Source of the DNA: Daphnia carinata
Taxonomy: Eukaryota
DNA: 64,000 nt
Direction: 5' to 3'
Assembly (NCBI RefSeq): GCF_022539665.2
Contig: NC_081334.1
Location: 2,666,001-2,730,000 of the forward strand
Shown here piece by piece: positions 3,456-47,997 of the stretch. The notes beneath the pieces were generated by a model. It saw only the letters and a program-made list of their open reading frames with translations. It had not been told where the DNA came from and made no database searches. The position numbers and the translations under genes are program-made. Position 1 is the first letter of the stretch. Every line of letters starts with the position of its first letter.

Positions 3456-6400
3456 AATTCAATTTGTTTTGATCGAATTATTGTTTGGAGAGATGTGCCC
3501 TCACGTAGATAGATCGTCATCTAAACTAATTTCTGTCATTTATGGCGTGTGTGTACGTGTGTGTATGTGTGTGTGTAAAATTAAGAGCGTAAAAGATTTC
3601 TAAATAGACGGATAGACTTTGTTCTAAACAGATAAAAAAGAGCGACAGATGGTAATCGAAAAATCAAACAAAACGAGGAACAAAAGAAAAAGAAAAAGGG
3701 AAATCGAAAGAAAGAGAAGGAAAGAGAAAAAGGCTGTCGATGAGACGCTACTCACGCTAAGGCAATGACAATGAAGTCGAGCCAATTCCATGCATCTCTA
3801 AGATATGTGAAGGGTTTCAAGATAAAGCCGCGGGCCATTACTTTGACCGCGGACTCGAACGTGTAGATCGATGTGAAGATCACCCTGCGTTCAGAAAAAT
3901 ACAAAAGAAAATCCCAAGCCGAAAAGAAAACAAAAACGGGGGGGCACGGGTAATCAAAGACAAACTGGCCAACTGACGATATCCAACGAATATCAACAAG
4001 AAAGAATTTCAAAAAAAAAAAAAATTGTCAACTAAAAAGAAACCACCACAACGTAAACACGGAAATAAAATCATTGAAGAAATGAAAAGAAAAATAAAAT
4101 AAAATAAAATAAATTCATTAACGATACGAAATTGTTACGGGGACGATTGCTCTTGTTCTTGTACTTGGTGATGGCATCAACGAGGGATTGTGTGTGTAAA
4201 GCAAAAATTTAAAAAAAAAAAGGGGGGGGGGGAGGGAGGAGGACGTGGAAGATGTTTGTGAAAGTGGGGAAGAACACCAGACTAACATCCAACAAAACAA
4301 CTGGAAACATCAATTACATTTTGTTCGTTTTGTTCTCCGTGTGTTTCACAAGATCGAACAGCGACGTCCAATCAAAACTGCTTCGCTTTTCACAACGGAT
4401 GAACGGCGATTTTTTTTACCAACACAACAAAAATAAACAACATCGTCTTTTTTTGAACATTTCGAAAACGGTGCTAAACGTCTAACGTAACACACCCAAA
4501 TTGATTTAACCATCGATTACAACATTGTTAACAGGTAACGACGTCATGAGAAAAACAAATCAAAACTACTACCACAAATCAAAACTTGCCTTTCTCCTCG
4601 TTATCGAATTGAAAAGAAAAATATTAAATGGATCATTTCCAATTCACGATCCATAAAAGGCCTACTGCGAACCCGGACACACGCAGTAAATGAAAAAAAA
4701 AAAAATAAATAAATTGTTGATGACGTAACGCCGAAGAGCTTGTTGCATCTTGACCGATGTCTTTGAGCTCGTCTAATCATTGATGTATAGCCTCTATTAA
4801 CATTCTCACGGACCCCCTAACGCCCCAGCGTGGCTCTTGCGGCCCGCACGCACTTTCATGTACGTCCTCTCGCACAGTTCAAACGCTGTTTCATTTTGGC
4901 GCGATTGTTGGGTTAGCGTCGGTAGCGTCCAAAGAGACACAGTGCGTCTATAAATAGGACGCGCGTAACAAAGCGATTGTAATCTCGTTGATTATGCCGG
5001 TCTCGTTGCCGCGGGCAAATTTGCAAAGCGTCAACTTCCCCCCCCAAACCATGTACGAAAATAGCACCCCGAAATTGACACCAATGAAAAGCCTGGGCCC
5101 AAAACGCGAGAGTCCGCAACAACAAATATTCAAATGAAAAATAATAAATAAATAAATACTTTAAAAGGGGTAGAGAGAAACGGATACAAGTAAGTACCAA
5201 CAAACACAGACTAATCAAAAATAGTGAAGATATTACTGGTTTTCAAATGGATTTTGTTGTTTGTTTGTTTTGTTTTGTTTTTTGTTTTTCATTCCGGGGT
5301 TAGAAACGGGGCGTACGTATATACACGTCAATTATACACAGTTTCTACGACGACGACGATATTTGTTTTGTGTGTGAGGGGGGGGGAGGGGGCTACTTGG
5401 GACAAACTGCGCAATGCTTCCAACGATTGTTTTAAAGAACCACGTGAGATCAATAGGGTAATACGATGCATTCGTTTTTCTAAACGACCTAAGACGAAAC
5501 GGCAGTTCGAAATCCTAAGACGCATCATATATCCAATATGAAAGAAGTATACGAACATGAGGTACTCGAGTGTTGCGCAGCTTCACCACGTCCGTCAACT
5601 TCACGTTTAAAAAAAAAAAATGCCAATCAATGCAGATCCAATCGGTTCTAGCGCCTCTTTCGTTCAAATCGCTGGTAGACTATGTTGCCGATCTCTTTCG
5701 AATTCACGTGAAATTCAAATTTTTGGGGGCCATTTTATGACGAGCCTTAATGTTCCGAAATAGATGTTTAAAAAAAAAAAAAAAAGAAAAAGATTGAAAA
5801 ACAAAAGAAAAAAGAAAACTGATGATTCAGTTGGATACTGAAGGGATCGATGACGAAAGAGACCCAAAATAAATTAAATTTAAAAAAAGGACGGAACGCA
5901 AAATTGGAAAACAATGAAATGTGAAGTTTTTTTTTGTTTGTTTTTTGTGAACTTACTCGGTGGATTCGATGAAGGCGTTGGGCGGCATGATCATGAGGAT
6001 GCAATTGGTGAGGATGGTCAGAATGATGAAGAAGGAGAAGAGCGGATGGACCAGGACGTAGATGGCCACTCGCCGGATAGGATTGAACGGCGACAGGAGC
6101 CACATGGCGTCCGTTGCGCTGAACCGGTAAATGTCTTTGCCTTTGCTGATGACTACGAACGTCTGCAGCACAAACGCACCCCCCAGCACATAACAAAAGA
6201 AGACCACCACCACGAACGCCACAACACACACACACGCACACAGAGTGGAGGTACACGTGTGAGCACAGAAGTCGCCATCGAGATCACCCAAAAAGAAAAA
6301 CAAAACATTTGATTAGTTTCAATTAAAAAATAAAATTTAATCATTCAAGCAAAACAAAAGACGGTCAAAAATGGTTCTGTTCAAACCCCATTTTTCTAGA

Positions 6401-12000: not shown

Positions 12001-13554
12001 CGATTTCGAGGTGGTCCCTCATGTCTCTCAATACGGGGACTGCGCCGTTACGCAACCCAAGTATACATATCTATATGGTGGAAGGGGCAAGGGGGAGGAG
12101 AAGCTCGGCCCATCATGAAAAACTGATGGCGGTCCCCGTCGATCGTCCACGCACGGTCGATTTCGCTGTTTTTGTGATGTCGCCCCTCAATCGTACGCGC
12201 CCGTACGATTATCGCGCGAGAGTAACGCATACGCTCATTTTCTCTTTGCAGCCATTGGGTCCCACTGGCTACGTTTAAATGCCGCGGGGGTGTGTCAACG
12301 CAAAGAAGGGCCATCGAGGGACATCCCCGGCCGAATGCAATTGAAAATCGACAGGAGCAGCTGTGTCGTTGGCTATCGCCATCAAACGGGCCCAGCGATT
12401 GTTTATCAATCGTTAACGAGCCTCCGCTGCATAGATACGCAGCACAAGCGGCGGAGTCTCTAAAAACAATAAAACGGTGAGGGGCGGCCTCTCACTCTCT
12501 CTCTCTCTCTCTCTCTACCGTCATAACAATGGACGTATCGATGTGCAAAAGCTCATTCAAGTGTCATTTCAAATTCTCGAGGCGCCATCAGCGAAATGGC
12601 TTCGCCTCTTAATGGATGGCGAGGGGGGAGGACGCAGTCAAGTGTCTTTTTGTGTTTGATGAAAGAGAATTTCGGCGTTAGTGCGTGCGGATGTTTGAAG
12701 CTACTGAAACTAATAAAAAAAAAACCATGTTCAACAAATAGCTCGAACTAGGGGAATGGACGCCAGGAAAAACTCAATTTGACGAAGATGCGAGAAGGCA
12801 GAGATCAGATAAAGAACGGAAGTGAATACGGCAAACCAAAACACAGCAATCAAGCAGAAAGATTGACGTAGACAAGTTGTTAAAGAAAAATAAAGGAGAG
12901 AAAGATGAAAGAAGAAAAAGGATGTAGAGAGTTCATTTCCTTACTTCTTTATTCCTTTTACGGGGCTTCAGGCCCAATCTGACCTACATATAGGGGACCC
13001 CACAATCATTAATCCATTGCCACATCGTCCTCTTATATTATTAAACTCGAAACTATTCAATCGCTCGTACTTTGTCAATGAATTTAGGTAATTTAAGCCT
13101 GGCCAATTTACAAATTTTTAAACGACGGACTTATTCAAACAAAAAAGGGGCTCCTGAATTTCTGACTTAAAATGAAAGGAAAGAAAAGATGGAAATAGAT
13201 CAGTAATAGACACAAAAGCAATAGAGTACATGAACACGTAGCAAAAGGACTTTCCAATATTCGATGGACAACACGACAACATCGAGAGTATTTAAAAAAA
13301 AAAAAACAAGTGACGAATCAAATAAAAGACGATGAATCAATAATTTTAGCTTATTTTTTAAACTTGACATGATAATTAGGAGAACATTGAATGGTTACCT
13401 CGCTCTCCTCCGCTTTCTTTTTGCGCTCGTTCCTCTTGGCCTCTTCTTCGGCGATCCGCGCCTCCGATTGGACCAGGGACTCGCGCGTGTACGGACAGAA
13501 CGCCGGTCGCTCCTCTTCGTCTTCATTGCTCTCCGTTTCGTGATCGCCGACCAT
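474..13554 (-). CDS. para: Voltage-gated sodium channel alpha subunit (para/Nav1), 5' portion; gene continues beyond the window start
   Basis: Exons with GT-AG boundaries and consistent phases, in transcript order: 13554-13399, 12983-12945 (optional), 9875-9720, 6162-5957, 3884-3756, 2466-2375, 2196-1984, 1668-1608, 1499-1181, 1095-796, 735-474. The translation has Nav hallmarks: [51 protein letters not shown]4 [15 protein letters not shown] pore loop QDYWE (D of DEKA at 1381-1379), IS6 [19 protein letters not shown], and L1 SLSLPGSPF and [23 protein letters not shown]. Confidence 0.98.
8997..9030. repeat. (GAAA)n tetranucleotide microsatellite in para intron 2
   Basis: About 8 GAAA units. 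Confidence 0.9.
12945..12983 (-). CDS. para: para 39-nt microexon ([13 protein letters not shown]), positional homolog of insect optional exon j
   Basis: Minus strand reads tatgtag|GTC AGA TTG GGC CTG AAG CCC CGT AAA AGG AAT AAA GAA|gtaagg. Phase 0-0, matching the flanking exons. Basic peptide ending KE, at the position of the basic optional exon before RYDDEDEDEG in Drosophila para. Confidence 0.8.
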
Positions 13555-28527: not shown

Positions 28528-31500
28528 ATGTTTAATAGCTGTGGGCAAGGCCTTACGTGAGTTTACTGGTTGCCACGGCCACGGAATCAACAAAGTGGTT
28601 TTTGAATGAAACTCTCGACAGTCATCCGAGTGGGACAATGCAGAGGAGATCGTTTTCACATAAGAGGGTGGATTCGTTCCACTCGTTCAATGCCGCGAAA
28701 ACAAAATCTGCACCACTCAAGAGCGAATGGGGAGAAAACTTCATTATGGACAGGTAAATAATCGTGAACAAGTTGAGCACTATATATTTTTTATAACATT
28801 TCCCCTCTATTTGACTGTTGATTATTGAATTGGGGACATTGGCTGTCTACCCATTGCCAGGTGCGGTCTGCCATGCGTGCCTTCGCTCAAGGGCCGCGAA
28901 AACGTCCAGTTCATTTCCCTACAGCACAATTTGATCTGTCGGATCGATTCTTTGGCCTCCTTCCGGATGCTCAAAGTGCTGAACCTCTACGACAACAAAA
29001 TCGAACGGATATCGGGTCTTGACACGCTCACCTCTCTTCGAGTGTTGATGCTCGGTAAAAACAGGTACCGTAGCCATGCTCGTACTTTGACGGATTACCA
29101 GTCATTTCCCCTTGGCCAGCCTGACCTGCTGTATACTTTCTTTCCGATCAAGTCAGGCATAATATGAAACGAACAAAAATGATTGGACGTTCGTTTCACT
29201 GTTGTTGCTTGTTTTTTTTTTCTTAACTCCCCTCTTCTTGACTTCTCTCTCTTTTATGTACGTGTTTCTCAACTTTGACGTAGATTGAAAACGACGGAAG
29301 GGCTGGAGTCGTTGCAGAGCCTCGACATTTTGGACCTGCACGGCAACCAGATCGCCGCTCTGACGGGTATATCGCGCCTCCGGACTTTGCGTGTGCTAAA
29401 TCTGGCGGCCAATTCCCTCAAGAAGCTGCCCTCCCTTGACGGACTCCTCGCTCTCGAGGAGCTCAACGCCAAACGCAACCGAATCTGCAAGATCGTGCCG
29501 GAAGTGGCACACGCCAAGCGGCTCGAACGGCTCTACTTGAGCAACAACGAACTGCGTCGGTAAGTTTTTGGCGTACAGATGAAACACTTCCCACAACAAC
29601 AGCCGGTTTGAAATTACCATCGCAATATATAGAGAAAAGGGAAGATGGCACCAACTTTCTTTTTACTTTCTCTTTCCTTGGATAGTGTGTGCCCATTCGG
29701 CCGGAGTTCGAGAAAGAGCCACGGCTTTCTGCTTGTGACACAAGTTTTTGAGGGAATACGTCGCATGAAAAGGAGGTGAGGGGGGGACTCGGCTTAGACT
29801 TGAAGAGACGAAATGCCAGTGTGTGCATCATGGCGTGCGTGTGTGACGTAATAAGAGAGGTGGCCACGGGAATCGTTTATTTGCGTTGTCCAAAGTAGGA
29901 ACGGACGTCCCCAACGACACAAGAACAACGGAAGCGAACAGAGAAGGCGACGACGTTTTGAAAACAAACAAAACACTGTCTATAAAGCTTTTGGATTTTG
30001 AAAAAAAAGAAGACGAGGGGAAATAGACAAGAAAACTTAATAGTGGACTGGAAGCACCAGGTCGACGGGTTTTTTTATTTTATCGCGACCAGTTCAGTTA
30101 AATCGATGCGAACAAAAAATTGCAATACTCTCGTCGTTCTTTCTTTATTGTTAGCAAGGGCAGTAGTTTCCTTTTTGTTTTTCAAATGGCATTAAAAAAA
30201 AACGAATTTTGTGACTCATCTAAATTGATATGTCATGTACGTTGTAGTGTTATATTCAGAAAGCATGCTAAAGAGCATCAAACGAAAGGGTATTACTTTT
30301 GCCGCGGGCCGGATTGTATCCATATTGTGCACTAAAAAGCCTAGTCGGGGTTTGGATGACCAGCTTTTGGAACAGTAAAGCGTTCATTAAAAACGCATGT
30401 CACCTTGTCGTAATTCACTAGGTAAATGGATATGACCCTTCGCTATTTTATTGCAATTTCGTCGTAAACAATGGACAAAGTTCTCTTATTTAATCATCGT
30501 GTTCTGAATTGTTTGTAAACAGCAAAGCAGTAAATGATGTAATTGTCCAGCCGTTTCATTCTACCGAATTTGTATGTCACGTGTTTATCTCTGCTATATC
30601 CAAATGATCGTGTGTTCGTGCATTTGCAGGCTGGACGACCTGAGCCCGTTGAGTTTCCTCAACGGATTGAAGGAGCTCTCGCTGGACGGCAACCCGCTGA
30701 CTTTTAACGCCAACTACGTCCTGTACGCGGTCAGTTCGATGCGTTCGCTCGTTTTACTCGACCAAAATGTCATCTCTTGCGGACTGAGAGCCGAGGCGGA
30801 GACCTGGTCGTCTCAGCGCTTGCCGGCCAGCACAGCCAGCAGCCAAATGGACAAGATCAACCCGATTGTGACTGTCCAACACAAGGCTTCTGCTTCCGGC
30901 GTTGCCATCGGCACGATCAAGAGCTCCGGCATGTCCAGCAAGTTCCACCAGCGCAATGTCGCCGTCGTCCGGCCCATGAGCACGACACATCAGCCGGAAC
31001 AAGACCATCACGAGACTCCGCCACAAGCGGAAGGTTTGACGGGGCAGGTTGGCAGCCCCCCGATTGCCCACGAACCGCCCCGTTGTCATAGCCCGGGTCC
31101 GATGGCATCGCCATTAAATCGTGTTTGGTCAGGAGCGGTGACCCTCCGCGGCGCAAGTCCTTCCGACAGATCGCCTTCTCGGCGATGGTGTGCAACGCGG
31201 CAGCGCCTCGGCCGGCGGCCGATGATAGCGAAGACAGGCCCGTCTTCCGTTTCAGTCTCCGCCCACCGACAGCCGAATGGAACGAGAAAATCGAAAGGCG
31301 GACCACCGGAAAGCGAACGACCAGCAGCGGCGGTGGCGGCAGCAGCAATTGTAACAGACGACGCGATCGATCGCGTGTCGCCATCGAGTTTGACGATTCT
31401 TCCAGTTCGTGGAATTCCGACTCGGACGACTCGGATACGGCGTCCACCGCGTCCACGCAGTCCAGGAAACCGGCCGCCAGGTTGCCCTGCCGCGTTTCAA

Positions 31501-32675
31501 CTGCACCGACGGCCAGCGGTGCGACGATGAACTTGAGTCGCGGCGTCTCGTCGAGCAAAGCGCCGACGTCGTTGGCCAATCAGAAGCTGAGCGCCACGAT
31601 TGGGATGAACATCAAAGAGCAGTTGCGCGACCTGCGGATTATCGTCGGCGAAGAGGAGGTGCACATTACCGGTTTGAACATTGTCCGCATGCTGCACAAC
31701 ATGCACTGGTCGGCCGATGAAGTGGATTTGTTTCACATGATCGTCTTTTACGGCCTCAGCTTCGATCAGCTGTGTCCGCATTACGCGTCCATCCGCAAAC
31801 TGTTCCCCAACTTGCGCAATTTCGCCTTCCGCAAGATGGCCATCCCGCCGACGTTGCGTCAGATCAACGCCCTGGCCAAACTGGAAAGCTCGTCGTGGTT
31901 TCGATGGACCATCAGCGTCGAGACGCTCGTCCCAACGCCAGAGCCGTTGAGGGCCGCCTGGAAGTTGTACGCCATTTATCGGTTGCATCCATTCGGATTG
32001 GATCAGATCGACGGAGAGCCGATTGGACCCGAAGACGTGGCCAATGCCGAGGACCACTACGATACGCTCGATGCTCTTGTCTTGTTAACAGCGCCATCAA
32101 CGGCCATCCGGAGACAATTTGATCGGTTCCACGATGCTGGACAAAGTCCGTCATCGTCGTCTTCTTCTTCTGGATCTTCGGACGTTGGCGGGGCTGCGTG
32201 CCAACAGCAGCAACAGTCACGTGATAACGAGTACGGCCTCTTGATGAGGAAGCGAGCCATTCGTGCCACGTTTCAACCGTTCAAGGTGTGTCTGTGAATT
32301 GATTATTTTTAAATGAGGCTGCTGTCGCGATCCACAACGATCCGTCAGTGTCGTTCGTGGAAATATTCCATCAATCCGACGTTGTTGTTTTTTGTTGCTT
32401 TTCTTCTCGTGCGTGACTTGGTTTCTAAACTTTCATATTTATTCATTCCTTTCAATTTTTCTGTTTAGGAAACGAAGCACTTACGAAATCGTACAGCGCA
32501 TCTGAAATACATTGCCGAGTACGGTATGGAAGTGGCCATCAAGTTGAGTTTCCTGTCCCAAAACTGGGAACGTCTTTTGACCGACATGGTGGAAACTGCA
32601 GCAGACGAAGTGCAAGACGAAGCTGTTTACAAGAGGACCAAGATGGCTCAGATGAGGAGCAACTCGAATGCCTGA
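28528..32675 (+). CDS. LRRC49: Leucine-rich repeat protein 49 (tubulin polyglutamylase complex / centriolar satellite LRR protein)
   Basis: Exons 28528-28556 (start tentative), 28622-28753, 28861-29064, 29284-29559, 30630-~31047, ~31092-32285 and 32469-32675. SDS22-like LRRs (LNLYDNKIERISGL, LRVLMLGKNR, LDILDLHGNQI, LRVLNLAAN) and an LRR cap (LSLDGNPL..YV) match LRRC49 as I recall it. The C-terminal domain contains RKLFPNL..LRQINALA..WKLYAIYRL. The junction near 31048-31091 is uncertain because of a frame change. Confidence 0.85.
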
Positions 32676-38655: not shown

Positions 38656-39663
38656 CACGGGGAAGGGATAGAAGAAGAGAAAGAAAAGTCTCAAGATCAA
38701 AAAGGTCGGATGATAAAAGGTGAAAATGTGTTCCTTCCAAAGGGGCGGGGAGAATAAAGAAAGGAAAGCAAATGGCTTCATTTCTAGTCCGACTCACGTC
38801 CGCCATGTTGCGCAATCTGCCCTGTTAAAAAGAGCAACAGCCATTTGCTGGCCTCTCTGTTGTTTTCTATTTCCGTATTTTTTTTTTTAATTATTATTAT
38901 TATTATTTTTGTTCTTCTTCTTCTTTTTATATTTTTCTTTTCTTTTTTTGTGATTTCCTCGGAATGTGACACGCCCCTGAAGCGGACGAGGTCAATCGAT
39001 GGAGGGACTTTGACTTTGACGTTGTTGCCATTTGTTCACCGTTGTCACGTTTTTTTTTTCTTCTCTCTTTTGCGTGTGTCGTGTTGTTGTCGCCCGTCGA
39101 AATGTTGTCGTTACAGCCTGAACAAGCCGATCGATGCTACCATGGATAATAGCGCCACAGTGACACCCCCTCACGAAGGAGCCAATCCCGGAATCAACGG
39201 CGGCCAACCGGATCAACCCAAGCCGTCCATACGACGTGATTTAGGCAAAAACATCATTTGTTTTTTTGTGTTTTTTTTTTCCCCTTTTTCTTTTCGTTGT
39301 CCGTGATTGAGAATTTTTGCGTTTTCGTTCCTTTTCCAAACGGCAACAACAACACAACAAAAATATTGTCGTATGCAAAAACAGGTTCGAGATCGCGGAG
39401 CGCAGAGGCGATGGGCACGCCGTCGTCGGACGGCGGTAGCCACGGCAAAAGCCGGCGGATCTTGCCGTCGTTGAGACGCATATCAACAACACCATTGAAG
39501 CCGAGACGTCGGTCTTCGTCCGAATCGTCCGAATCGTCGTGTCCGTCGGCGCCGACGGCTCCCAAACAGCCGGCCAGGCCGAGCCCGTTGAGGAGCGCGG
39601 CCGTGGCCGCAGCGCGCAAAACGCGCCGATTGTTCGGCGCTAAATCCAATGACATTTCACCTG
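37601..39663 (+). CDS. ATP8B: Putative N-terminal extension exons of ATP8B (about 257 aa, low-complexity and S/R/P-rich)
   Basis: Exons 37601-37974 (phase 2), 39117-39235 (phase 2->1) and 39385-39663 (phase 1->1) join in frame through GT-AG junctions to the conserved [10 protein letters not shown] exon at 41024. No domain homology recognised; alternative starts are possible. Confidence 0.6.
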
Positions 39664-40137: not shown

Positions 40138-41023
40138 GCACAGCTGTTACGTCTCTCGTTCTCGCCCTTGGATGGCCAAAACCAATCGATGAGAAGAGAT
40201 TCGGCTTTTCTCTCATCAGGCGCTCTCTCTCTATCCATTTTTGCTTTCTCTTATTTGTAGCTATTCAATCTTTAGTAGCGTAATGATCTTTTTTCCTTTT
40301 ACGGATCAATGATATCATCATCCTCCTTTCCCTTTCCAGAGGTAAAAAAAAAAAAAAAGAGAAACATATTTTTGTTTGTAATGATGTCATCCATCAATTT
40401 TTTTTTTTTTGCCCGGAGTTCGTGATTCCCATCGTTCTCGGCCACGGCCGCTCTTTCCCGGTTGTTAGCAAAAAAAAAAAAAAAAAGGTCCTGAAAATCT
40501 TGCGTCATAGTCTCTAAGGAATTTTTATGATTTATTTATTTATATTATTTTCCGGATCTTTTTTTTTTTTCTTTCTATGTTTTGTATTCTCTTCTTCTCC
40601 TATTATCAAAAGCATCCGGGTGCTGTGTGTGTGTGTGTGCGTGTAGTATTGATCCGCCTCCGATTGTAATAACGCCGGCATGGAAGGGGCTGGCTTTTAA
40701 AGTATTACGTGAGGGATTGTTGTAGAAAGGGGAAAGTGGGGAAATCGTCGTGTTTGTACATTCCATTTTTATTTAAAAACAATACCCACGAAAGAAAAAA
40801 AAAAAGGAAAAGATGAATCGAACAATATTTGCATGGCACTAAAAGAGCAACAATTGGAAAAATGGTGAGATGTTTGTGGAATGTTTGTTGATGTTGTAGT
40901 TCTTGTTGCTTTCCATTGTTTCGGTTAGGTTGATTGTAGTTGTTGTTAGTGTGACTTGATTATCTCCTTTGATCATTCAACAAAACTAACATTCGATTTG
41001 CATGATTTTCATAATTGATATAG

Positions 41024-44000
41024 AAAACGAAAGACGGATACGGGCTAACGACACGGCTTTCAATTCGCAGTTCAACTATTCAGTAAGTGATCTTCATTTG
41101 TTTTGTTTTGTTTTGTTTTGTTTTGTTTTTCGTCTCAAAATTCAATTGTTTTGCCGGGTGGGTTCGTTATCTTTTTAAATGAGGAAGCGCATCGTTTGAA
41201 AAAAGGAAATTACAAAACGAAAATGTTCACATCCGAACTCGTGACGTTGACACGCGTCACGTGTGTTCCAGTTTGCTGACATTTTAAATGGAATGAAATT
41301 AATTCTTTTTTTTCGTCCTCGCTTTGAAAAAAAAAAAAAAAGGATAATTACATCCAGACGTCCAAGTACACGCTGGTGTCGTTTGTGCCAGTCAACCTGA
41401 TCGAGCAGTTCCAGCGGCTGGCCAATTTCTATTTCCTGTGCCTTTTGGTGCTCCAGTTCATCCCGTTCATCTCGTCGCTGACGCCAGTCACCACTGCCGT
41501 GCCTCTCATCGGTGTCCTGCTCCTAACGGCCATCAAAGATGCCTACGATGATTTCGTGAGTTTTAACTTTTTTCCCAATTTCGAACTGGCATATCATGTG
41601 AATATGCCTAATTGTTTTGTTTATGATTTGGAACACGTTCAGCAAAGACATCGGAGCGACTCGCAAGTGAATAATCGAAAGTCGCACGTCTTGCTCAATG
41701 GCAAGTCGGTGGAAGAGCGTTGGCACAAAGTGCAGGTGGGCGACATCATTCGCATGGAAAACGATCAGTTCATCGCGGCTGATCTTCTTCTTTTGACCAC
41801 GTCCGAGCCCAACGGCCTCTGTTATATTGAAACGGCCGAGCTGGACGGGTATGATTTCATTTTTCCCGCCCTTTTTTTTTTTTATTTATTTATTTATTTT
41901 AATTTAAGTACTTTGCTAAACATGAAAAATTGATGATGTTAGGGAGACCAATTTGAAATGCCGCCAGTGCCTGATGGAGACGGCCGAAATGGGCCAGGAC
42001 GAGGCTAGGATCGGCGGTTTCGACGGAGAGATCGTCTGCGAGCCGCCCAATAATCACTTGAACAAGTTTGAGGGCCGGTTGACGTGGAACGGCAAGCAGT
42101 ACTCGCTGGACAATGACAAGATCCTGCTCCGCGGATGCGTTCTGCGCAACACGCAGTGGTGCTACGGCGTCGTCGTCTTCGCCGGACGCGACACGAAGCT
42201 GATGCAGAATTCGGGCAAGACGAAATTCAAACGGACCTCTATTGATCGTCTGCTCAACTTTATCATCCTCGGGGTACGATTTCATTTCCGTCATTGCTCA
42301 TTTGCCTTTTGACATTCAAAATCTAAGCCAACGTTTTTGTTTTTGTTTTTGTTTTCTTAGATTGTTTTCTTTCTGCTGTCGATGTGCCTGTTCTGCACGA
42401 TCGCCTGCGGCGTCTGGGAGACGGTGACGGGCCAGCACTTTCGCTCCTACTTGCCGTGGGATCCGCTGATTCCGGCCGAGCCCAAAGCTGGCTCCACCGT
42501 CATTGCCTTGCTCATCTTCTTCTCGTACGCCATCGTTCTCAACACAGTGGTGCCCATCTCGCTCTACGTCAGCGTCGAAGTCATCCGGCTGGCCCAGTCT
42601 TTCCTCATCAACTGGGACCAGCAAATGTTCTACGAAAAGACGCAAACACCCGCCAAGGCGCGCACGACGACACTCAACGAGGAGCTCGGCCAAATCGAGT
42701 ACATTTTCTCCGACAAGACGGGCACGCTGACGCAAAACATCATGTCATTCAACAAGTGCTCCATTGGCGGATCTTGCTACGGCGACGTCTTTGACGCATC
42801 CAACGGCGAAATCATTGAGCCTAACGAGGTACACCGTCCTCCGTTAATCGTTTTAGTTATTCGAACATCATTTTTTTAACGTGACGTGCTTTCAGAATAC
42901 CAAAACAGTGGACTTCTCTTTTAATCCGCTTCACGAACAAACGTTCAAGTTTTACGATCAGACACTTGTCGATTCGAATCGTGAACAAGATCCCACCTGC
43001 CATGAATTCTTCCGACTTCTGGCACTCTGTCACACCGTCATGCCCGACGAGAAAAATGGTATTTCATTTCTTTCTTTCTTTTCGTTGTGTGTTTCATTCT
43101 GATTTCATTTGTTTGTTTTTTTCATTTTAAAGGAAAACTGGAATACCAAGCCCAATCGCCGGACGAAGGAGCTTTGGTATCAGCAGCTCGCAATTTTGGT
43201 TTCGTCTTTAAAGCACGCACACCAGATTCTGTCACCATCGAGGTTATCATCATTTCTTAAAGAATGATTCAATCAAATGTGTGTTGTTAATGAAAAAAAA
43301 AAAACATTTTATGACAGGTGATGGGAAAGACGGAAGTCTACGAATTGCTGTGCATTTTGGATTTCAACAACGTCCGTAAACGAATGTCGGTCATCCTTCG
43401 CGGTCCCAATGGCAAAATCCGCCTCTACTGTAAAGGAGCCGACTCGATCGTCTACGACCATCTGCAGTCGGGAAATGACGACATTAAGAACAAAACACAA
43501 GAACATTTAAATGTAAAAAAACAGTTGCTGAGCGATCTTGTTTTTGTTTTCTCTGAAATTACTTTTTCCTTTTATGTTTCTCCAGAAATTTGCTGGTGAA
43601 GGTTTAAGAACGTTATGTTTGGCAATCCGTGACGTGGACGAAGCTTATTTTGAAGACTGGAAGGAACGACATCACGAAGCCTCGGTTTCGATGAAGTCGC
43701 GAGAAGAACGTCTGGACAAACTGTACGAAGAAATCGAACAGAATCTGACACTGTTGGGTGCAACGGCCATTGAAGATAAACTTCAAGATGGGGTCAGTAG
43801 AATTTATTTCAGTTTCCAGAAAAAATGTCTTTTTAAATTTGAATTTTATTTTGTTTAAAGGTGCCACAAACTATTGCTAACCTTGCGATTGCTGGAATTA
43901 AAATTTGGGTGTTGACTGGAGATAAACAAGGTGATTGATTTACACAGTCAGATATTGGGGTGGTATAAATAGAGATTACTTGTGAATCTAGAAACTGCCA

Positions 44001-47000
44001 TCAACATTGGATATTCTTGCCAGCTGTTGACCGACGAGATGGTCGATATTTTTATAGTCGACGGCCAGAACGTCGAAGATGTCGAGCTGCAATTAATCAA
44101 ATGTCGAGAATCTCTGCGTGGATATGCCCGCAGTCAAGTCCAAACTGCTCTCAGTGGAATCAGGTACACACACACCTTCGTCCATTTTGCATCTGGATAG
44201 TTCTGCTCATCAATGATTTGGTAAATCATTTAGTGACCGTGGCTATTCGTCCAGCATCGGTGGTGAAATGGAGGACATGGCGTGCGGACCAGAATTGACG
44301 GGAATCGACGAGGACAACAACACGGGTTACGCCTTAGTCATCAACGGCCATTCGTTGGTCTACGCCCTGCAGACCAAGTTGGAAAAACTGTTTCTCGATG
44401 TCGGTACACAATGTAAGGTCATTTGTTGCTGCTTTTCTGCCAAATCCATTTGGAAATGATGACGACACGCTGGTTTTCAATTGTTTTCAGGCAAAGCAGT
44501 GATTTGCTGCAGAGTGACACCACTTCAGAAAGCCATGGTGGTCGATTTGGTGAAAAAATACAAACAAGCCGTCACGCTATCTATCGGTGACGGAGCCAAC
44601 GACGTATCAATGATCAAAACAGCCCACATTGGCGTTGGCATCAGCGGTCAGGAAGGCATGCAGGTAATATTATTCTTCGTTCGAATTTAGTGACGGTCTG
44701 ATTTTTGCAATTGCAATTGTGACTGTCTAGGCCGTCTTGGCGTCAGATTACAGCATTGCCCAATTTCGGTATCTCGAACGTTTGCTGCTCGTCCACGGGC
44801 GTTGGTCCTACCTTCGCATGGCCAAGTTTTTACGCTACTTCTTCTACAAGAACTTTGCCTTCACCCTCTGCCATTTTTGGTTCGCCTTCTTTTGCGGATT
44901 CTCCGCCCAGGTATGTGCATTTGTTTTTTCTTTTGTTTCTATCCTTAAAGAAGTTCAGTTTTTTTTTCTTTTGCGGGGAGGGGGGAGCTCTCGTAAATAG
45001 AAGTCGGGGGTGTGCCAATGGTATCAAACGTTCCAGGGCAACGGTTCCGGAATCTTATTCACATAGAATCTGATCTTCTGAATTCTTTTGTTTGTTTTTG
45101 TTCTTATTTTTGCTTGGGGAAAAGTGTACTTGTCGTTTCGCACGAATTCTCGCAAACCAAAACTAATATGAAAAAAAAACAAAAACAGCACGGCTAAACT
45201 GCACAATTGGAATGGAACCCACTAACCGAATTGGTTTTAAATTTTCACTGAAACAAAAAAAAAACGAAAACAAAAACGTATAAAAACAAATCGATTTCTA
45301 CGCAACAACAACAACAAACAAAAATGTTGTCGATTGAAACGGGGGGACGACGCAGACGGTGTACGAGCCGTTCTTTATCATTTGCTACAACGTGGTCTAC
45401 ACGTCGTTGCCCGTCTTGGCGCTGGGCATCTTCGAACAGGACGTCTGCGATACGCTCTCTACTCGCTACCCGAGACTCTACTCGCCCGGCCTGGGACACA
45501 ATTTCTTCAATCCGCGAAGCTTTGCCTCGGCCGCCTTGCACGGTGTCGCCACATCCGTTTTAGTTTTCTTTGTACCTGTAGGTACGTACGTTTTTCATTT
45601 GCATGCGAAAGCAAAAACACGAAAACACACAAAAAACAAAATCGGAAGAGACCCGGTTTTCATGGTTTTGCGCACGTCAAAAAGCACTTTGACCTCCAAA
45701 ACTGCCTCCTCGAATTTCCCTTCCTCCTCGCCCATTTTGCTTTCGATTCCGTCGGCGGATGTGTCGGATGAAAATTCCCGTTTCAAAAGATAAAAAAAAA
45801 AATGCGGATGGCATGTCAGTTATTAACGGATTGATAGGTGGCAGTAGTAGATAAACCAACCGTCATTGAGTTAGGAAAATGAATTTATTTTTTAAATCTA
45901 TTTTCAAGCATGATTCTTTTTTATTTATTATTTTCGCTTTCGCCTCTTTTTTTTTTCCTGTTCAATATATTATTATTTTTGTCTATCATTCGTTGGGGCT
46001 TCCGGTTGGTTGTTGATCTCCGAGTCGTTAACAGAAGCCAGGGAGCTTATTGTGTCTCGTCTTCCCGATCTACTAGTATTAAATGCTAAACAAATGGCCA
46101 CGCCCTTCTTCGTGTTTACGATGCTCTCGGGGGACCGTTGTAACGTTTAGATTTTGCTTATTTTTCCTTCTGCTTTTGAGGCCTTGCCCGTCTAATAAAA
46201 ATGTTTTATTTATTGATTCCTGTGCGGGCAAAACAAAACAAAACAAAATAAAAAACAAACAAAACAAATGGCTGGACGTGGATAGACTGTGTTTGATCCA
46301 ATGTTCATCTCGGTGTACAACCTGTTCTACACGTCTCTGCCCGTCCTGGCGTTGGGCATCTTCGACCAAGACGTCAATGACGTCAACAGCCTCAAGTACC
46401 CCAAGCTCTTCACACCCGGCCATCTCAACCTGCTGTTCAACAAGGCGGAATTCTTCAAGAGCGCCATGCACGGATGCATCACGTCCTGCGTCCTCTTCTT
46501 CATTCCCTACGGTGCGTCCTCGCTTGTCCGTTTCCCCGTCTTCCGAACTCCATCCAACGTAACAACACCACAAATCCCCTCAGCGAGATCCCGCTGTCCT
46601 CAAACATTGAAACCGAGCAAGGGACACTTCCCTTTTTTTTTATCCTGTCCAGCAGAAATCTCTTGTACATTGAGCTCTTCCAATCACCTCGTACCCTCTC
46701 TTATCCATTGATCCTCCTTCTCTCTTTCTCTCTTTATTCGAGCACATAAAACAATATCATTTTCTTTCATTTTAATTTTTCAAAAACATTTGATGACGAT
46801 ATTTTTCTATTGTTCTGCGATGTGGATGTGCGCGGTGGAAATGCAGGTGCCTACTTCGACGGTGCCTCGCACCAAGGGCACACAACTTCGGATCATCAGC
46901 TGATTGGCAGCGTCGTGGCCACCATCCTGGTCGTCGTGGTGACGGTGCAAATCGCGCTGGATACGGCCTACTGGACAGTGTTCAATCACATCACCATCTG

Positions 47001-47997
47001 GGGCTCGCTCGTCTGGTACTTTGCCCTGCAATATTTTTACAACTTCGTCATCGGCGGATCCTATGTCGGCTCGCTCACCAAGGTACCTCACCATCATTTA
47101 TTTATTTATTTTTTTTTTTTTATCCGTTTCGTGACATTTTCATTTGAAAAACAAAAAACATTTTGTCAGGCGATGGGAGAGGCGACGTTTTGGTTCACGC
47201 TGGTCTTGTCCATCGTCATCGTCATGATTCCCGTCGTTGCGTGGAGATTCTACTTTTTCGACGTTCATCCAACGCTGGCCGACCGCGTCCGTTTCAAGCA
47301 GAGACAGCCTCGCATCCGGTGCGTTCAACATTTATGTTTTTCCATGTTTTAAGTTTCGATTTTTCATTTTGTTTTTGTTTGTTGTACGCAAACATTTTAG
47401 GGCGCACAAATCTCAAGACTTTTTGCGGACGCCTTCGGCTCGTCGCAGTCGACGATCGCTGCGATCCGGCTACGCCTTCGCCCACCAGGAAGGTTTCGGC
47501 AAACTCATCACATCAGGCAAGATTATGCGCAAGACGGGCTTGAATTTCGGGACGAAAGCAAGCAGCAACAATGCGGCAAACAACAACAGTGGAAGCAGCC
47601 ACAGCGTGTCGACAGGTGGCGGCCTGGCCTCACTGGCCGATCACCCTGACGGTAAGTCGCACATGAACTCATCATTTCGTTATCGAATTTGCTTGCTGGC
47701 CAAGTTTATTTTTATTTTTTTATATATATATTTTGAAACAAATAATTGAAAGCGATCGTGTGCGTAGGTCCAGTTTCGGGCATTTTTTACCATCCGATGG
47801 GAGAGAACGATAGAAGTATGCAGCCCAGTACGCGCCAGTCTCACAATGGCAGTAGCGTCCAGCCGCGAGCTTCGTCCGTCGCTTACGCGCGCACGGCCAA
47901 CAATAGTAGCCGGCCACGATTGCAGGATCCCTACGCCATCACCGTAGATCTGGAGTCTGGCGGAGAGCCTGCCTTACCCAATACAATGTCGACGTGA
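41024..47997 (+). CDS. ATP8B: Phospholipid-transporting P4-ATPase (flippase), ATP8B class
   Basis: Exons 41024-41082, 41343-41555, 41643-41848, 41943-42273, 42361-42828, 42896-43058, 43133-43242, 43318-43512, 43586-43792, 43861-43930, 43992-44163, 44234-44412, 44491-44663, 44731-44910, [45356-45581 OR 46286-46511], 46847-47082, 47170-47318, 47401-47651 and 47768-47997. With the three upstream exons the total is 4590 nt and in frame. Motifs: DGET, PISLYVS (P4-specific TM4), phosphorylation site DKTGT (Asp at 42712), QSPDE, TGDKQETA, GDGAND, and C-terminal [13 protein letters not shown]. Confidence 0.97.
45356..45581 (+). CDS. ATP8B: ATP8B mutually exclusive exon A (TM6-loop-TM7, divergent copy)
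   Basis: cgcag|ACG GTG TAC ... GTA G|gtacgt, 226 nt, phase 0->1, no stops. Translation: [76 protein letters not shown]. Confidence 0.9.
46286..46511 (+). CDS. ATP8B: ATP8B mutually exclusive exon B (TM6-loop-TM7, canonical-like copy)
   Basis: gatag|ACT GTG TTT ... TAC G|gtgcgt, 226 nt, phase 0->1. Translation: [76 protein letters not shown]. Confidence 0.93.

What the first reader, a model, noticed from the sequence alone, without database searches (positions are those of the whole stretch)
44998..46072. Nested complementary intron elements that could loop out ATP8B exon A (docking-site/selector-like RNA switch)
Seen: two imperfectly complementary pairs in nested antiparallel order around exon A. 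TAGAAGTCGGGGG (44998-45010) pairs with TTCCCGATCTA (46062-46072) with a 2-nt bulge and G-U pairs. GGCAACGGTTCCGGAATCTT (45037-45056) pairs with GGGCTTCCGGTTGGTTGTT (45996-46014), with a CCGGAA/TTCCGG core plus GGCAAC/GTTGTT. These are GC-richer islands in AT-rich introns. Established: long-range RNA pairing selects mutually exclusive exons in arthropod Dscam, Mhc and 14-3-3zeta. Inference: the stem brings the 44910 donor close to exon B and hides exon A. The pairing was judged by eye and is imperfect.
Basis: partly seen in the sequence, partly recalled or inferred. Interest (0 to 1): 0.7.

Follow-up and report, generated by a model that had tools for sequence, protein, structure and literature searches.

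The report
Intron stem hides water-flea flippase exon
In a water-flea lipid-flippase gene with two duplicated either-or exons, the RNA pairings first proposed are no better than chance, but a different and stronger pairing between the two introns is predicted at the same place in a second lineage and likely loops out the first exon, which was never seen spliced in here.

Summary
The gene is Daphnia ATP8B. Exons A (45356-45581) and B (46286-46511) are duplicated 226-nt exons, and A is under coding selection. A divergent ortholog, L038, folds a long stem at the same place (0 of 80 or 10 of 80 shuffles, by setting). No competing selector lies before exon A, so this is a one-way loop-out like the srp upstream pairing or ATE1 R2R5, not a docking/selector switch. 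Both acceptors have candidate distant branch points with long AG-free zones in both lineages. Only B was seen spliced. Caveats: only two full sequences, 6 of 83 background segment pairs score better, and the window's exons A and B look copied from another species, probably an assembly artefact. New member of a known kind.

The parts
44731..44910 (+). Constitutive upstream exon of ATP8B; common 5' splice site at 44910/44911
   Evidence: Translation and donor; an X6 RNA contig joins 44910 directly to the start of exon B
44983..45017 (+).
   Evidence: Pairs with 46095-46128; counterpart L038:2404-2440, extended by a second helix at L038:2449-2466
45037..45056 (+). Predicted to form a local hairpin with 45006-45016 before the 3' arm is transcribed; alternative 11-bp partner at 46131-46141 (helix Q)
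   Evidence: Prefix fold p 0.98-1.0; Q -17.1 kcal/mol, 2 of 200 shuffles in the window but 104 of 200 in L038. Lead only
45220..45226 (+). Candidate distant branch point of exon A (A at 45225, -130), inside a 165-nt AG-free zone
   Evidence: L038 has the motif at -95 with a 122-nt AG-free zone; the alignment block scores 18, below the shuffle mean of 22.3
45356..45581 (+). Exon A, 226 nt, duplicated alternative exon (matches human ATP8B1 residues 978-1052); not seen spliced into any mRNA examined
   Evidence: 20 of 35 differences from X1 fall at third codon positions, p=0.003; window letters probably come from another species
45743..45773 (+). Best-conserved block of the middle intron (E1); no significant partner in intron 1; possible protein-binding element
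   Evidence: Score 36, equal to the maximum of 300 shuffles; partner test 172 of 200 and 121 of 200
45996..46014 (+).
   Evidence: not among the conserved blocks
46062..46078 (+).
   Evidence: 1 of 200 shuffles in L038, 48 of 200 in the window
46095..46128 (+). 3' arm of stem S, 157 nt before exon B's acceptor and about 67 nt before its candidate branch point
   Evidence: core 46104-46124 conserved in L038 (score 30; shuffles 95% 27, 99% 31); 46089-46116 aligns in a third lineage, X15
46184..46231 (+). Candidate distant branch point of exon B (A at 46195, -90) in the loop of a small hairpin, inside a 103-nt AG-free zone; overlaps an AATAAA hexamer
   Evidence: Block score 33 against a 99% shuffle level of 31; L038 has the motif at -69 with a 124-nt AG-free zone
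46286..46511 (+). Exon B, 226 nt, the exon found in every Daphnia mRNA and full-length protein examined
46847..47082 (+). Constitutive downstream exon
   Evidence: Spliced joint 46511 to 46847 (GT..AG) in an X1 contig

Best explanation
Daphnia ATP8B has two duplicated 226-nt exons, and a predicted long-range stem between 44983-45017 and 46095-46128 likely loops out exon A and sets the common donor close to exon B's predicted branch point, which would make B the default choice. Shown: the exon pair; coding selection on A; frameshift stops if both or neither exon is used; B as the only spliced form seen. Predicted: the stem, its counterpart in L038, and distant branch points at -130 and -90. Inferred: exon A can be chosen only if its weak acceptor is committed before the 3' arm is made (about 740 nt later), or if a protein or a local hairpin keeps the 5' arm busy. 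The stem would set the ratio, while exclusivity likely comes from splice-site competition plus decay of frameshifted products.
For: Stem S is the best intron-1 x intron-2 duplex at penalty 0.3: 0 of 150 shuffles match it. It lies in the minimum-energy fold at no cost, with helix probabilities 0.84-1.0. L038, whose introns are otherwise mostly unalignable, has its best duplex at the same relative place (2404-2465 x 3905-3960; 0 of 80 shuffles). Of 29 window pairs, 18 are paired at the aligned position in L038: 14 unchanged, 3 changed on both sides, 1 on one side. The 3' core is conserved in sequence in L038, and a 28-nt piece of it aligns in X15. None of the 39 listed X1 substitutions falls in the 5' arm, and the X1 contig over the 3' arm has 2 differences in 329 nt. 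B is the spliced exon in X1 and X6 contigs, in L001-L005 and in 16 of 16 full-length Daphnia-type proteins. Both-in and both-out products meet a stop within 3 and 19 codons. AG-free zones are 165 and 103 nt in the window and 122 and 124 nt in L038, against 15-102 nt at the 14 other window acceptors scored. In Drosophila srp an equivalent upstream pairing directs the second exon (PMC4691838, results part 1 read).
Against: Only two full sequences could be compared. At penalty 0.4 the L038 result falls to 10 of 80 shuffles, and in the window a G-rich/C-rich duplex (44973-44985 x 45719-45731) outranks S. 6 of 83 equally spaced segment pairs elsewhere in the window score better than S, 4 of them not low-complexity. 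The homologous core alone is not significant in L038 (73 of 200 and 34 of 200 shuffles); there the strongest helix uses the neighbouring block E4, which is weak in the window. 11 of 29 pairs are not kept, and 2 of the 3 double changes lie at a loosely aligned end. The X15 piece is 28 nt, under the tool's 30-nt reliability mark. Rare use of A is equally explained by a weak acceptor. A was never seen spliced, so its use as an internal exon in Daphnia is inferred. Equilibrium folding of 1.4 kb is a crude model of co-transcriptional RNA.
Confidence: 0.55

Rival explanations
1. The stem is incidental or minor. Exon A is repressed by its weak acceptor (distant branch point, no adjacent pyrimidine tract) and by proteins binding conserved intronic blocks, and nonsense-mediated decay removes the wrong products.
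For: 6 of 83 background pairs beat S. The result in L038 depends on the penalty. The best-conserved block, E1, has no partner in intron 1. Both acceptors are atypical. [quoted passage not shown]
Against: The best duplex of both lineages falls at the same relative place, and one of the three best non-repetitive conserved blocks of the middle intron is its 3' arm.
Confidence: 0.25
2. It is a true two-state switch, Dscam-type or srp-type, whose second pairing (selector before A, or a stem around B) was missed; helix Q or the local hairpin of the 5' arm could be part of it.
For: Before the 3' arm exists the 5' arm folds back on 45037-45048 (p 0.98-1.0), and that segment has an 11-bp partner right after the 3' arm. 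srp uses two competing stems (PMC4691838). No ortholog sequence was available for the intron after B.
Against: No selector before A (242 of 300, 189 of 300) and no significant middle-intron x downstream-intron duplex (18 of 100). Q is not the best partner in L038 (104 of 200). The best candidate over B's acceptor (46271-46285 x 46640-46653) seems not to be kept in the translated intron of P0097 (judged by eye from protein letters).
Confidence: 0.12
3. Exon A is not an internal alternative exon. It serves as a terminal exon (read-through and polyadenylation) or is circularised, with the flanking stem helping back-splicing.
For: A appears only in unspliced contigs that run into the intron (X1, X6). 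Penaeus japonicus RefSeq isoform X6 ends in the intron after its A-like exon. A conserved AATAAA overlaps B's branch motif. Flanking complementary introns promote circular RNA (recalled).
Against: A keeps B's length, phase, open frame and donor in every lineage seen, with third-position bias. A protein ending there would lack the last membrane helices (recalled topology). No back-joint was listed in the runs laid, though contigs of poly(A) libraries have little power for circles.
Confidence: 0.08

Closest known systems
Drosophila serpent (srp) exon 4 cluster, upstream pairing Ud-Ds (PMC4691838; abstract and results part 1 read)
   Same: Two duplicated exons; an element after the upstream constitutive exon pairs with an element in the middle intron, looping out the first exon and directing the second.
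   Different: srp has a second, competing downstream stem needed for the first exon and is proven by compensatory mutants. Here no downstream stem was found and nothing is tested at the bench.
Human ATE1 R2-R5 ultra-long-range pairing (PMC7797038; abstract read)
   Same: A long-range stem that changes the ratio of two mutually exclusive exons and depends on co-transcriptional folding.
   Different: ATE1 R2R5 spans 30 kb, and a separate competing module (R1/R3/R4) enforces exclusivity; no such module was found here.
Dscam1 exon 6 docking site/selector system (PMC12962786; passages read)
   Same: A donor-proximal intronic element pairs with an element upstream of a variable exon.
   Different: Dscam has a selector before almost every variant, all competing for one docking site. 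Here only one partner was found, before exon B.
Distant-branch-point MXE pairs such as OGDH 4a/4b (PMC7969005; passages read)
   Same: Duplicated exon pair with a distant branch point and a long AG-free zone.
   Different: In OGDH the branch point lies 25-41 nt from the first exon's donor and excludes double inclusion sterically. Here it is about 612 nt away, so there is no steric exclusion.

Membership tests
Tandem-duplicated mutually exclusive exon pair | Homologous adjacent exons of the same length and phase with intact splice sites | tested here: met
   Both 226 nt; 40 of 75 residues of A identical to the window-type B; sites kept in L038
Tandem-duplicated mutually exclusive exon pair | Both exons under coding selection | tested here: met
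   20 of 35 exon A differences at third positions, p=0.003; B in all Daphnia proteins examined
Tandem-duplicated mutually exclusive exon pair | Each exon seen spliced alone into mRNA | tested here: inconclusive
   B yes. A not seen spliced in 6 of 18 runs laid, all as contigs, nor in 16 full-length Daphnia-type proteins; contigs drop rare forms
Dscam-type docking site/selector switch | One docking site after the upstream constitutive exon | tested here: met
   44983-45017; L038:2404-2466; predicted only
Dscam-type docking site/selector switch | A competing selector in front of each variable exon | tested here: not met
   No partner before exon A: 242 of 300 and 189 of 300 shuffles as good
srp-type bidirectional pairing | Upstream stem (intron 1 x middle intron) looping out the first exon | tested here: met
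   setting-dependent in L038
srp-type bidirectional pairing | Downstream stem (middle intron x last intron) looping out the second exon | tested here: inconclusive
   18 of 100 shuffles as good in the window; no ortholog DNA for that intron
RNA-structure-controlled MXE (any type) | Covariation across many species | tested here: inconclusive
   Two full sequences; 3 double-sided changes among 18 shared pairs, alignment-dependent
RNA-structure-controlled MXE (any type) | Disruptive and compensatory mutations change and restore the exon ratio | not testable with these tools
   Needs a minigene or genome editing
Steric (OGDH-type) MXE | Branch point of the second exon within about 50 nt of the first exon's donor | tested here: not met
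   Candidate branch point about 612 nt from exon A's donor

The most novel reading that the evidence does not exclude
Crustacean ATP8B flippases carry a hidden, unannotated isoform that swaps a membrane-helix segment next to the lipid path. In Daphnia it is kept off by a conserved RNA loop-out and switched on kinetically: the 5' arm first folds into a local hairpin and is captured only when the 3' arm appears, so polymerase speed or temperature would set which flippase is made. Duplication at this very exon recurs in shrimp, an isopod and at least two other lineages, which suggests repeated selection for switchable flippase properties.
Probability: 0.15. Interest if true: 0.6.

Novelty: new member of a known kind. 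Interest (0 to 1): 0.33.

Why it matters
If real, it adds a compact (1.4 kb), testable crustacean case of RNA-structure control of a two-exon cluster outside Dscam, and it points to an unannotated P4-ATPase isoform that changes the segment matching human ATP8B1 978-1052. The mechanism class is well known, so the gain is a new instance. The side finding also matters in practice: several exons in this assembly look overwritten by another species' sequence, which would mislead conservation and selection analyses.

Tried and rejected
With windows placed by the MAFFT alignments and by eye, the L038 counterparts were matched by 85% (P1) and 19% (P2) of control windows. The P1 test there used the outer 5' segment; the inner segment gives the 13-bp helix described under the observation check. 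The low fractions for P1, P2, S and Q in the window are post hoc and were not counted.

Stem hiding exon A's acceptor (45332-45353 x 45543-45565, p about 0.9): rejected. It uses exon letters that differ in X1 at 45547, 45553, 45556 and 45557 (effect judged by eye), and it is absent from the L038 fold.

Outer U-rich/A-rich stem (44920-44938 x 46241-46259, p 0.93-0.95): low complexity, and the A-rich tract is missing in L038.

Near-identity of exons A and B between the window and L038 as a sign of regulatory conservation: rejected as a likely mosaic.

X15 showed no listed piece on the 5' arm at 80% or 84% likeness; the tables were cut, so this proves nothing. X2 gave only low-complexity pieces.

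Unpenalised duplex scans grow without limit and are uninformative (observed -55.4 against a shuffle mean of -49.1). Rfam gave nothing real (2 hits, E 0.16 and 0.91). Prokaryote and viral collections held no ortholog (L039 is spurious). The 75-residue tree cannot say whether the A-like exons of Daphnia, shrimp, isopod and L029 share one origin. No competing structure stood out in the three-copy clusters L034 and L035 (no shuffles run). Earlier scan notes: none.

Full report
Gene and anatomy. The region is a P4-ATPase of the ATP8B group. The window's exons match the Daphnia carinata RefSeq protein XP_057374311.2 with no mismatch in the 18 of 20 segments where the comparison aligned properly; two segments were misaligned for that protein. 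After the donor at 44910 come exon A (45356-45581) and exon B (46286-46511), both 226 nt and in the same phase, then a constitutive exon from 46847. Exon A aligns to human ATP8B1 residues 978-1052; by recalled topology this is about TM6 to TM7. Reading B in the shifted frame meets a stop at the third codon, and skipping both exons meets one at codon 19, so both wrong products are likely decay targets (inference).

The four strings are where stated and give -10.9 and -16.4 kcal/mol. In a local duplex scan of intron 1 against the middle intron with a per-base length penalty, 150 of 150 dinucleotide shuffles had a best duplex at least as good as either pair, at both penalties tried. In the ensemble of 44880-46320, P1 reaches 2e-6 and P2 0.012. 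Forcing P1, P2 or both costs +10.2, +3.6 and +18.2 kcal/mol. P2's 3' arm prefers a local hairpin and is not among the blocks conserved in the ortholog.

The stem that is there. The same folding shows 44983-45017 pairing with 46095-46128: 29 pairs, -41.9 kcal/mol, helix probabilities 0.84-1.0. It is the top duplex at penalty 0.3, matched by 0 of 150 shuffles. At penalty 0.4 a G-rich/C-rich duplex (44973-44985 x 45719-45731), which also brackets exon A, ranks first and S second. Against real sequence S is good but not extreme: 6 of 83 equally spaced segment pairs elsewhere in the window score better, 2 of them simple repeats.

Second lineage. One of 38 metagenome loci, L038, holds the upstream exon, exon A and the start of B with largely unalignable introns. 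Its fold has a long stem at the same relative place, 2404-2466 x 3904-3960, with perfect 8-bp and 13-bp helices. 0 of 80 shuffles match it at penalty 0.3 and 10 of 80 at 0.4. The 3' core is conserved in sequence (score 30; shuffle 95% and 99% levels 27 and 31). Of the 29 window pairs, 18 are paired at the aligned position in L038: 14 unchanged, 3 changed on both sides (2 at a loosely aligned end) and 1 on one side. Tested block by block against shuffled intron 1 (9 blocks, 2 lineages, 2 penalties), the core block is significant in the window (0 of 200) but not in L038 (73 and 34 of 200; at the lower penalty its best partner is the homologous site), while the neighbouring block E4 is significant in L038 (1 of 200) but not in the window (48 of 200). 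So the place of the stem is kept better than its individual pairs. In a third lineage, a 2258-nt contig of run X15 aligns at exons A and B and, between them, at 46089-46116, within the 3' arm; the piece is only 28 nt.

Not a docking/selector switch. The 5' arm has no partner in the rest of intron 1 (242 of 300 and 189 of 300 shuffles as good), and the middle intron has no significant partner in the intron after B (18 of 100). The structure therefore works like the upstream half of the srp system, where such a stem directs the second exon (PMC4691838, results part 1 read), or like ATE1 R2R5, which sets a ratio (PMC7797038, abstract). It is not a member of the Dscam docking/selector class (PMC12962786, passages). 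A possible kinetic element is that, in a prefix ending at 45760, the inner 5' arm folds back on 45037-45048 (p 0.98-1.0). That segment also has an 11-bp partner at 46131-46141 (2 of 200 shuffles in the window, 104 of 200 in L038). This is a lead only.

Acceptors. Neither exon has a pyrimidine tract next to its AG (25% and 30%). Both have long AG-free zones, 165 and 103 nt (122 and 124 in L038), with a branch-like motif at -130 and -90 (-95 and -69 in L038); the 14 other window acceptors scored have zones of 15-102 nt. B's motif sits in a conserved block and a small hairpin loop. The stem's arms lie 72 nt from the donor and about 67 nt from B's branch point. B's branch point is about 612 nt from A's donor, which rules out OGDH-type steric exclusion (PMC7969005, passages).

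Use of the exons. B is spliced to the next exon in an X1 contig, joined to the upstream exon in an X6 RNA contig, present in L001-L005 and in 16 of 16 full-length Daphnia-type proteins examined (15 of 24 members of the main cluster were listed). A appears only in unspliced contigs. Contigs drop rare forms, and 6 of 18 runs were laid. A is nonetheless constrained: 20 of 35 differences from X1 are at third positions (p=0.003), and intact copies occur in P0001-P0004. A-like copies occur in Penaeus japonicus isoform X6, where the model ends in the following intron, in an Armadillidium gene model and in L029; L034 and L035 have three tandem copies of the first 84 nt. Their common origin is unresolved.

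Assembly caveat. X1 is nearly identical to the window in the introns (2 substitutions and 1 insertion listed in intron 1; 2 differences and 1 gap in 329 nt of the middle intron) and in the next exon (1 in 238), yet differs at 35 of 226 bases of A, 19 of 227 of B and 6 of 61 at the end of the upstream exon. Those patches, and two more exon stretches upstream, are about 96-100% identical to L038. At the protein level B is 1 residue from D. pulex and 5 from D. magna, while several other exons are closer to D. magna. The simplest reading is that reads of a second species overwrote conserved exons during assembly (inference); exon-limited gene conversion is less likely. Pairings that use exon letters are therefore unreliable, while the intronic arms appear unaffected.

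Literature. Ten full-text searches, nine of them on splicing or ATP8B, found no paper on this exon pair or structure. ATP8B terms were absent from the main text of PMC6071210, PMC12962786, PMC5740500 and PMC8373072 (term look-ups, passages seen), and the dATP8B paper PMC3961175 (passages) has no mention of splicing. Supplements were not opened, and subscription papers are not covered.

Verdict. Observation partly confirmed; interpretation partly supported. The best reading is a one-way loop-out stem that favours exon B (0.55). New member of a known kind; interest 0.33.

Noticed in passing
window 42555-42828, about 43318-43470, 44822-44916, 45348-45591, 46280-46511: Exon patches about 96-100% identical to a distant lineage (L038, as far as it reaches) while differing by 8-15% from a relative with near-identical introns (X1) where X1 was laid. 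Probably foreign reads overwrote conserved exons in the assembly; the matching RefSeq protein carries the same exon B.
   Followed up: partly
L034:4001-5470 and L035:3270-4798: In another animal lineage the first 84 nt of this exon occur as three tandem copies with intact splice sites, a separate three-exon cluster in ATP8B.
   Followed up: partly
P0228, P0005, L029:23-645: A-like second copies of this exon in Penaeus japonicus (isoform X6, ending in the intron), Armadillidium vulgare (piece inside a gene model) and a partly spliced transcript, L029.
   Followed up: partly
window 45684-45712, 45743-45773, 45802-45823, 46035-46057: Collinear conserved blocks in the middle intron with no significant partner in intron 1; some are echoed in the translated introns of P0001-P0004. 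Candidate protein-binding elements.
   Followed up: partly
   Followed up: partly
window 46194-46199: An AATAAA hexamer overlaps exon B's candidate branch motif and is kept in L038; it could allow intronic polyadenylation after exon A.
   Followed up: no
window 46846 acceptor: The constitutive exon after B also has a long AG-free zone (102 nt) and no adjacent pyrimidine tract.
   Followed up: no
window 39585-39616 x 40433-40461; 12285-12322 x 13429-13466; 30779-30840 x 31197-31262; 31184-31219 x 31937-31976: Non-repetitive long-range duplexes that scored better than stem S in the background scan; not examined.
   Followed up: no
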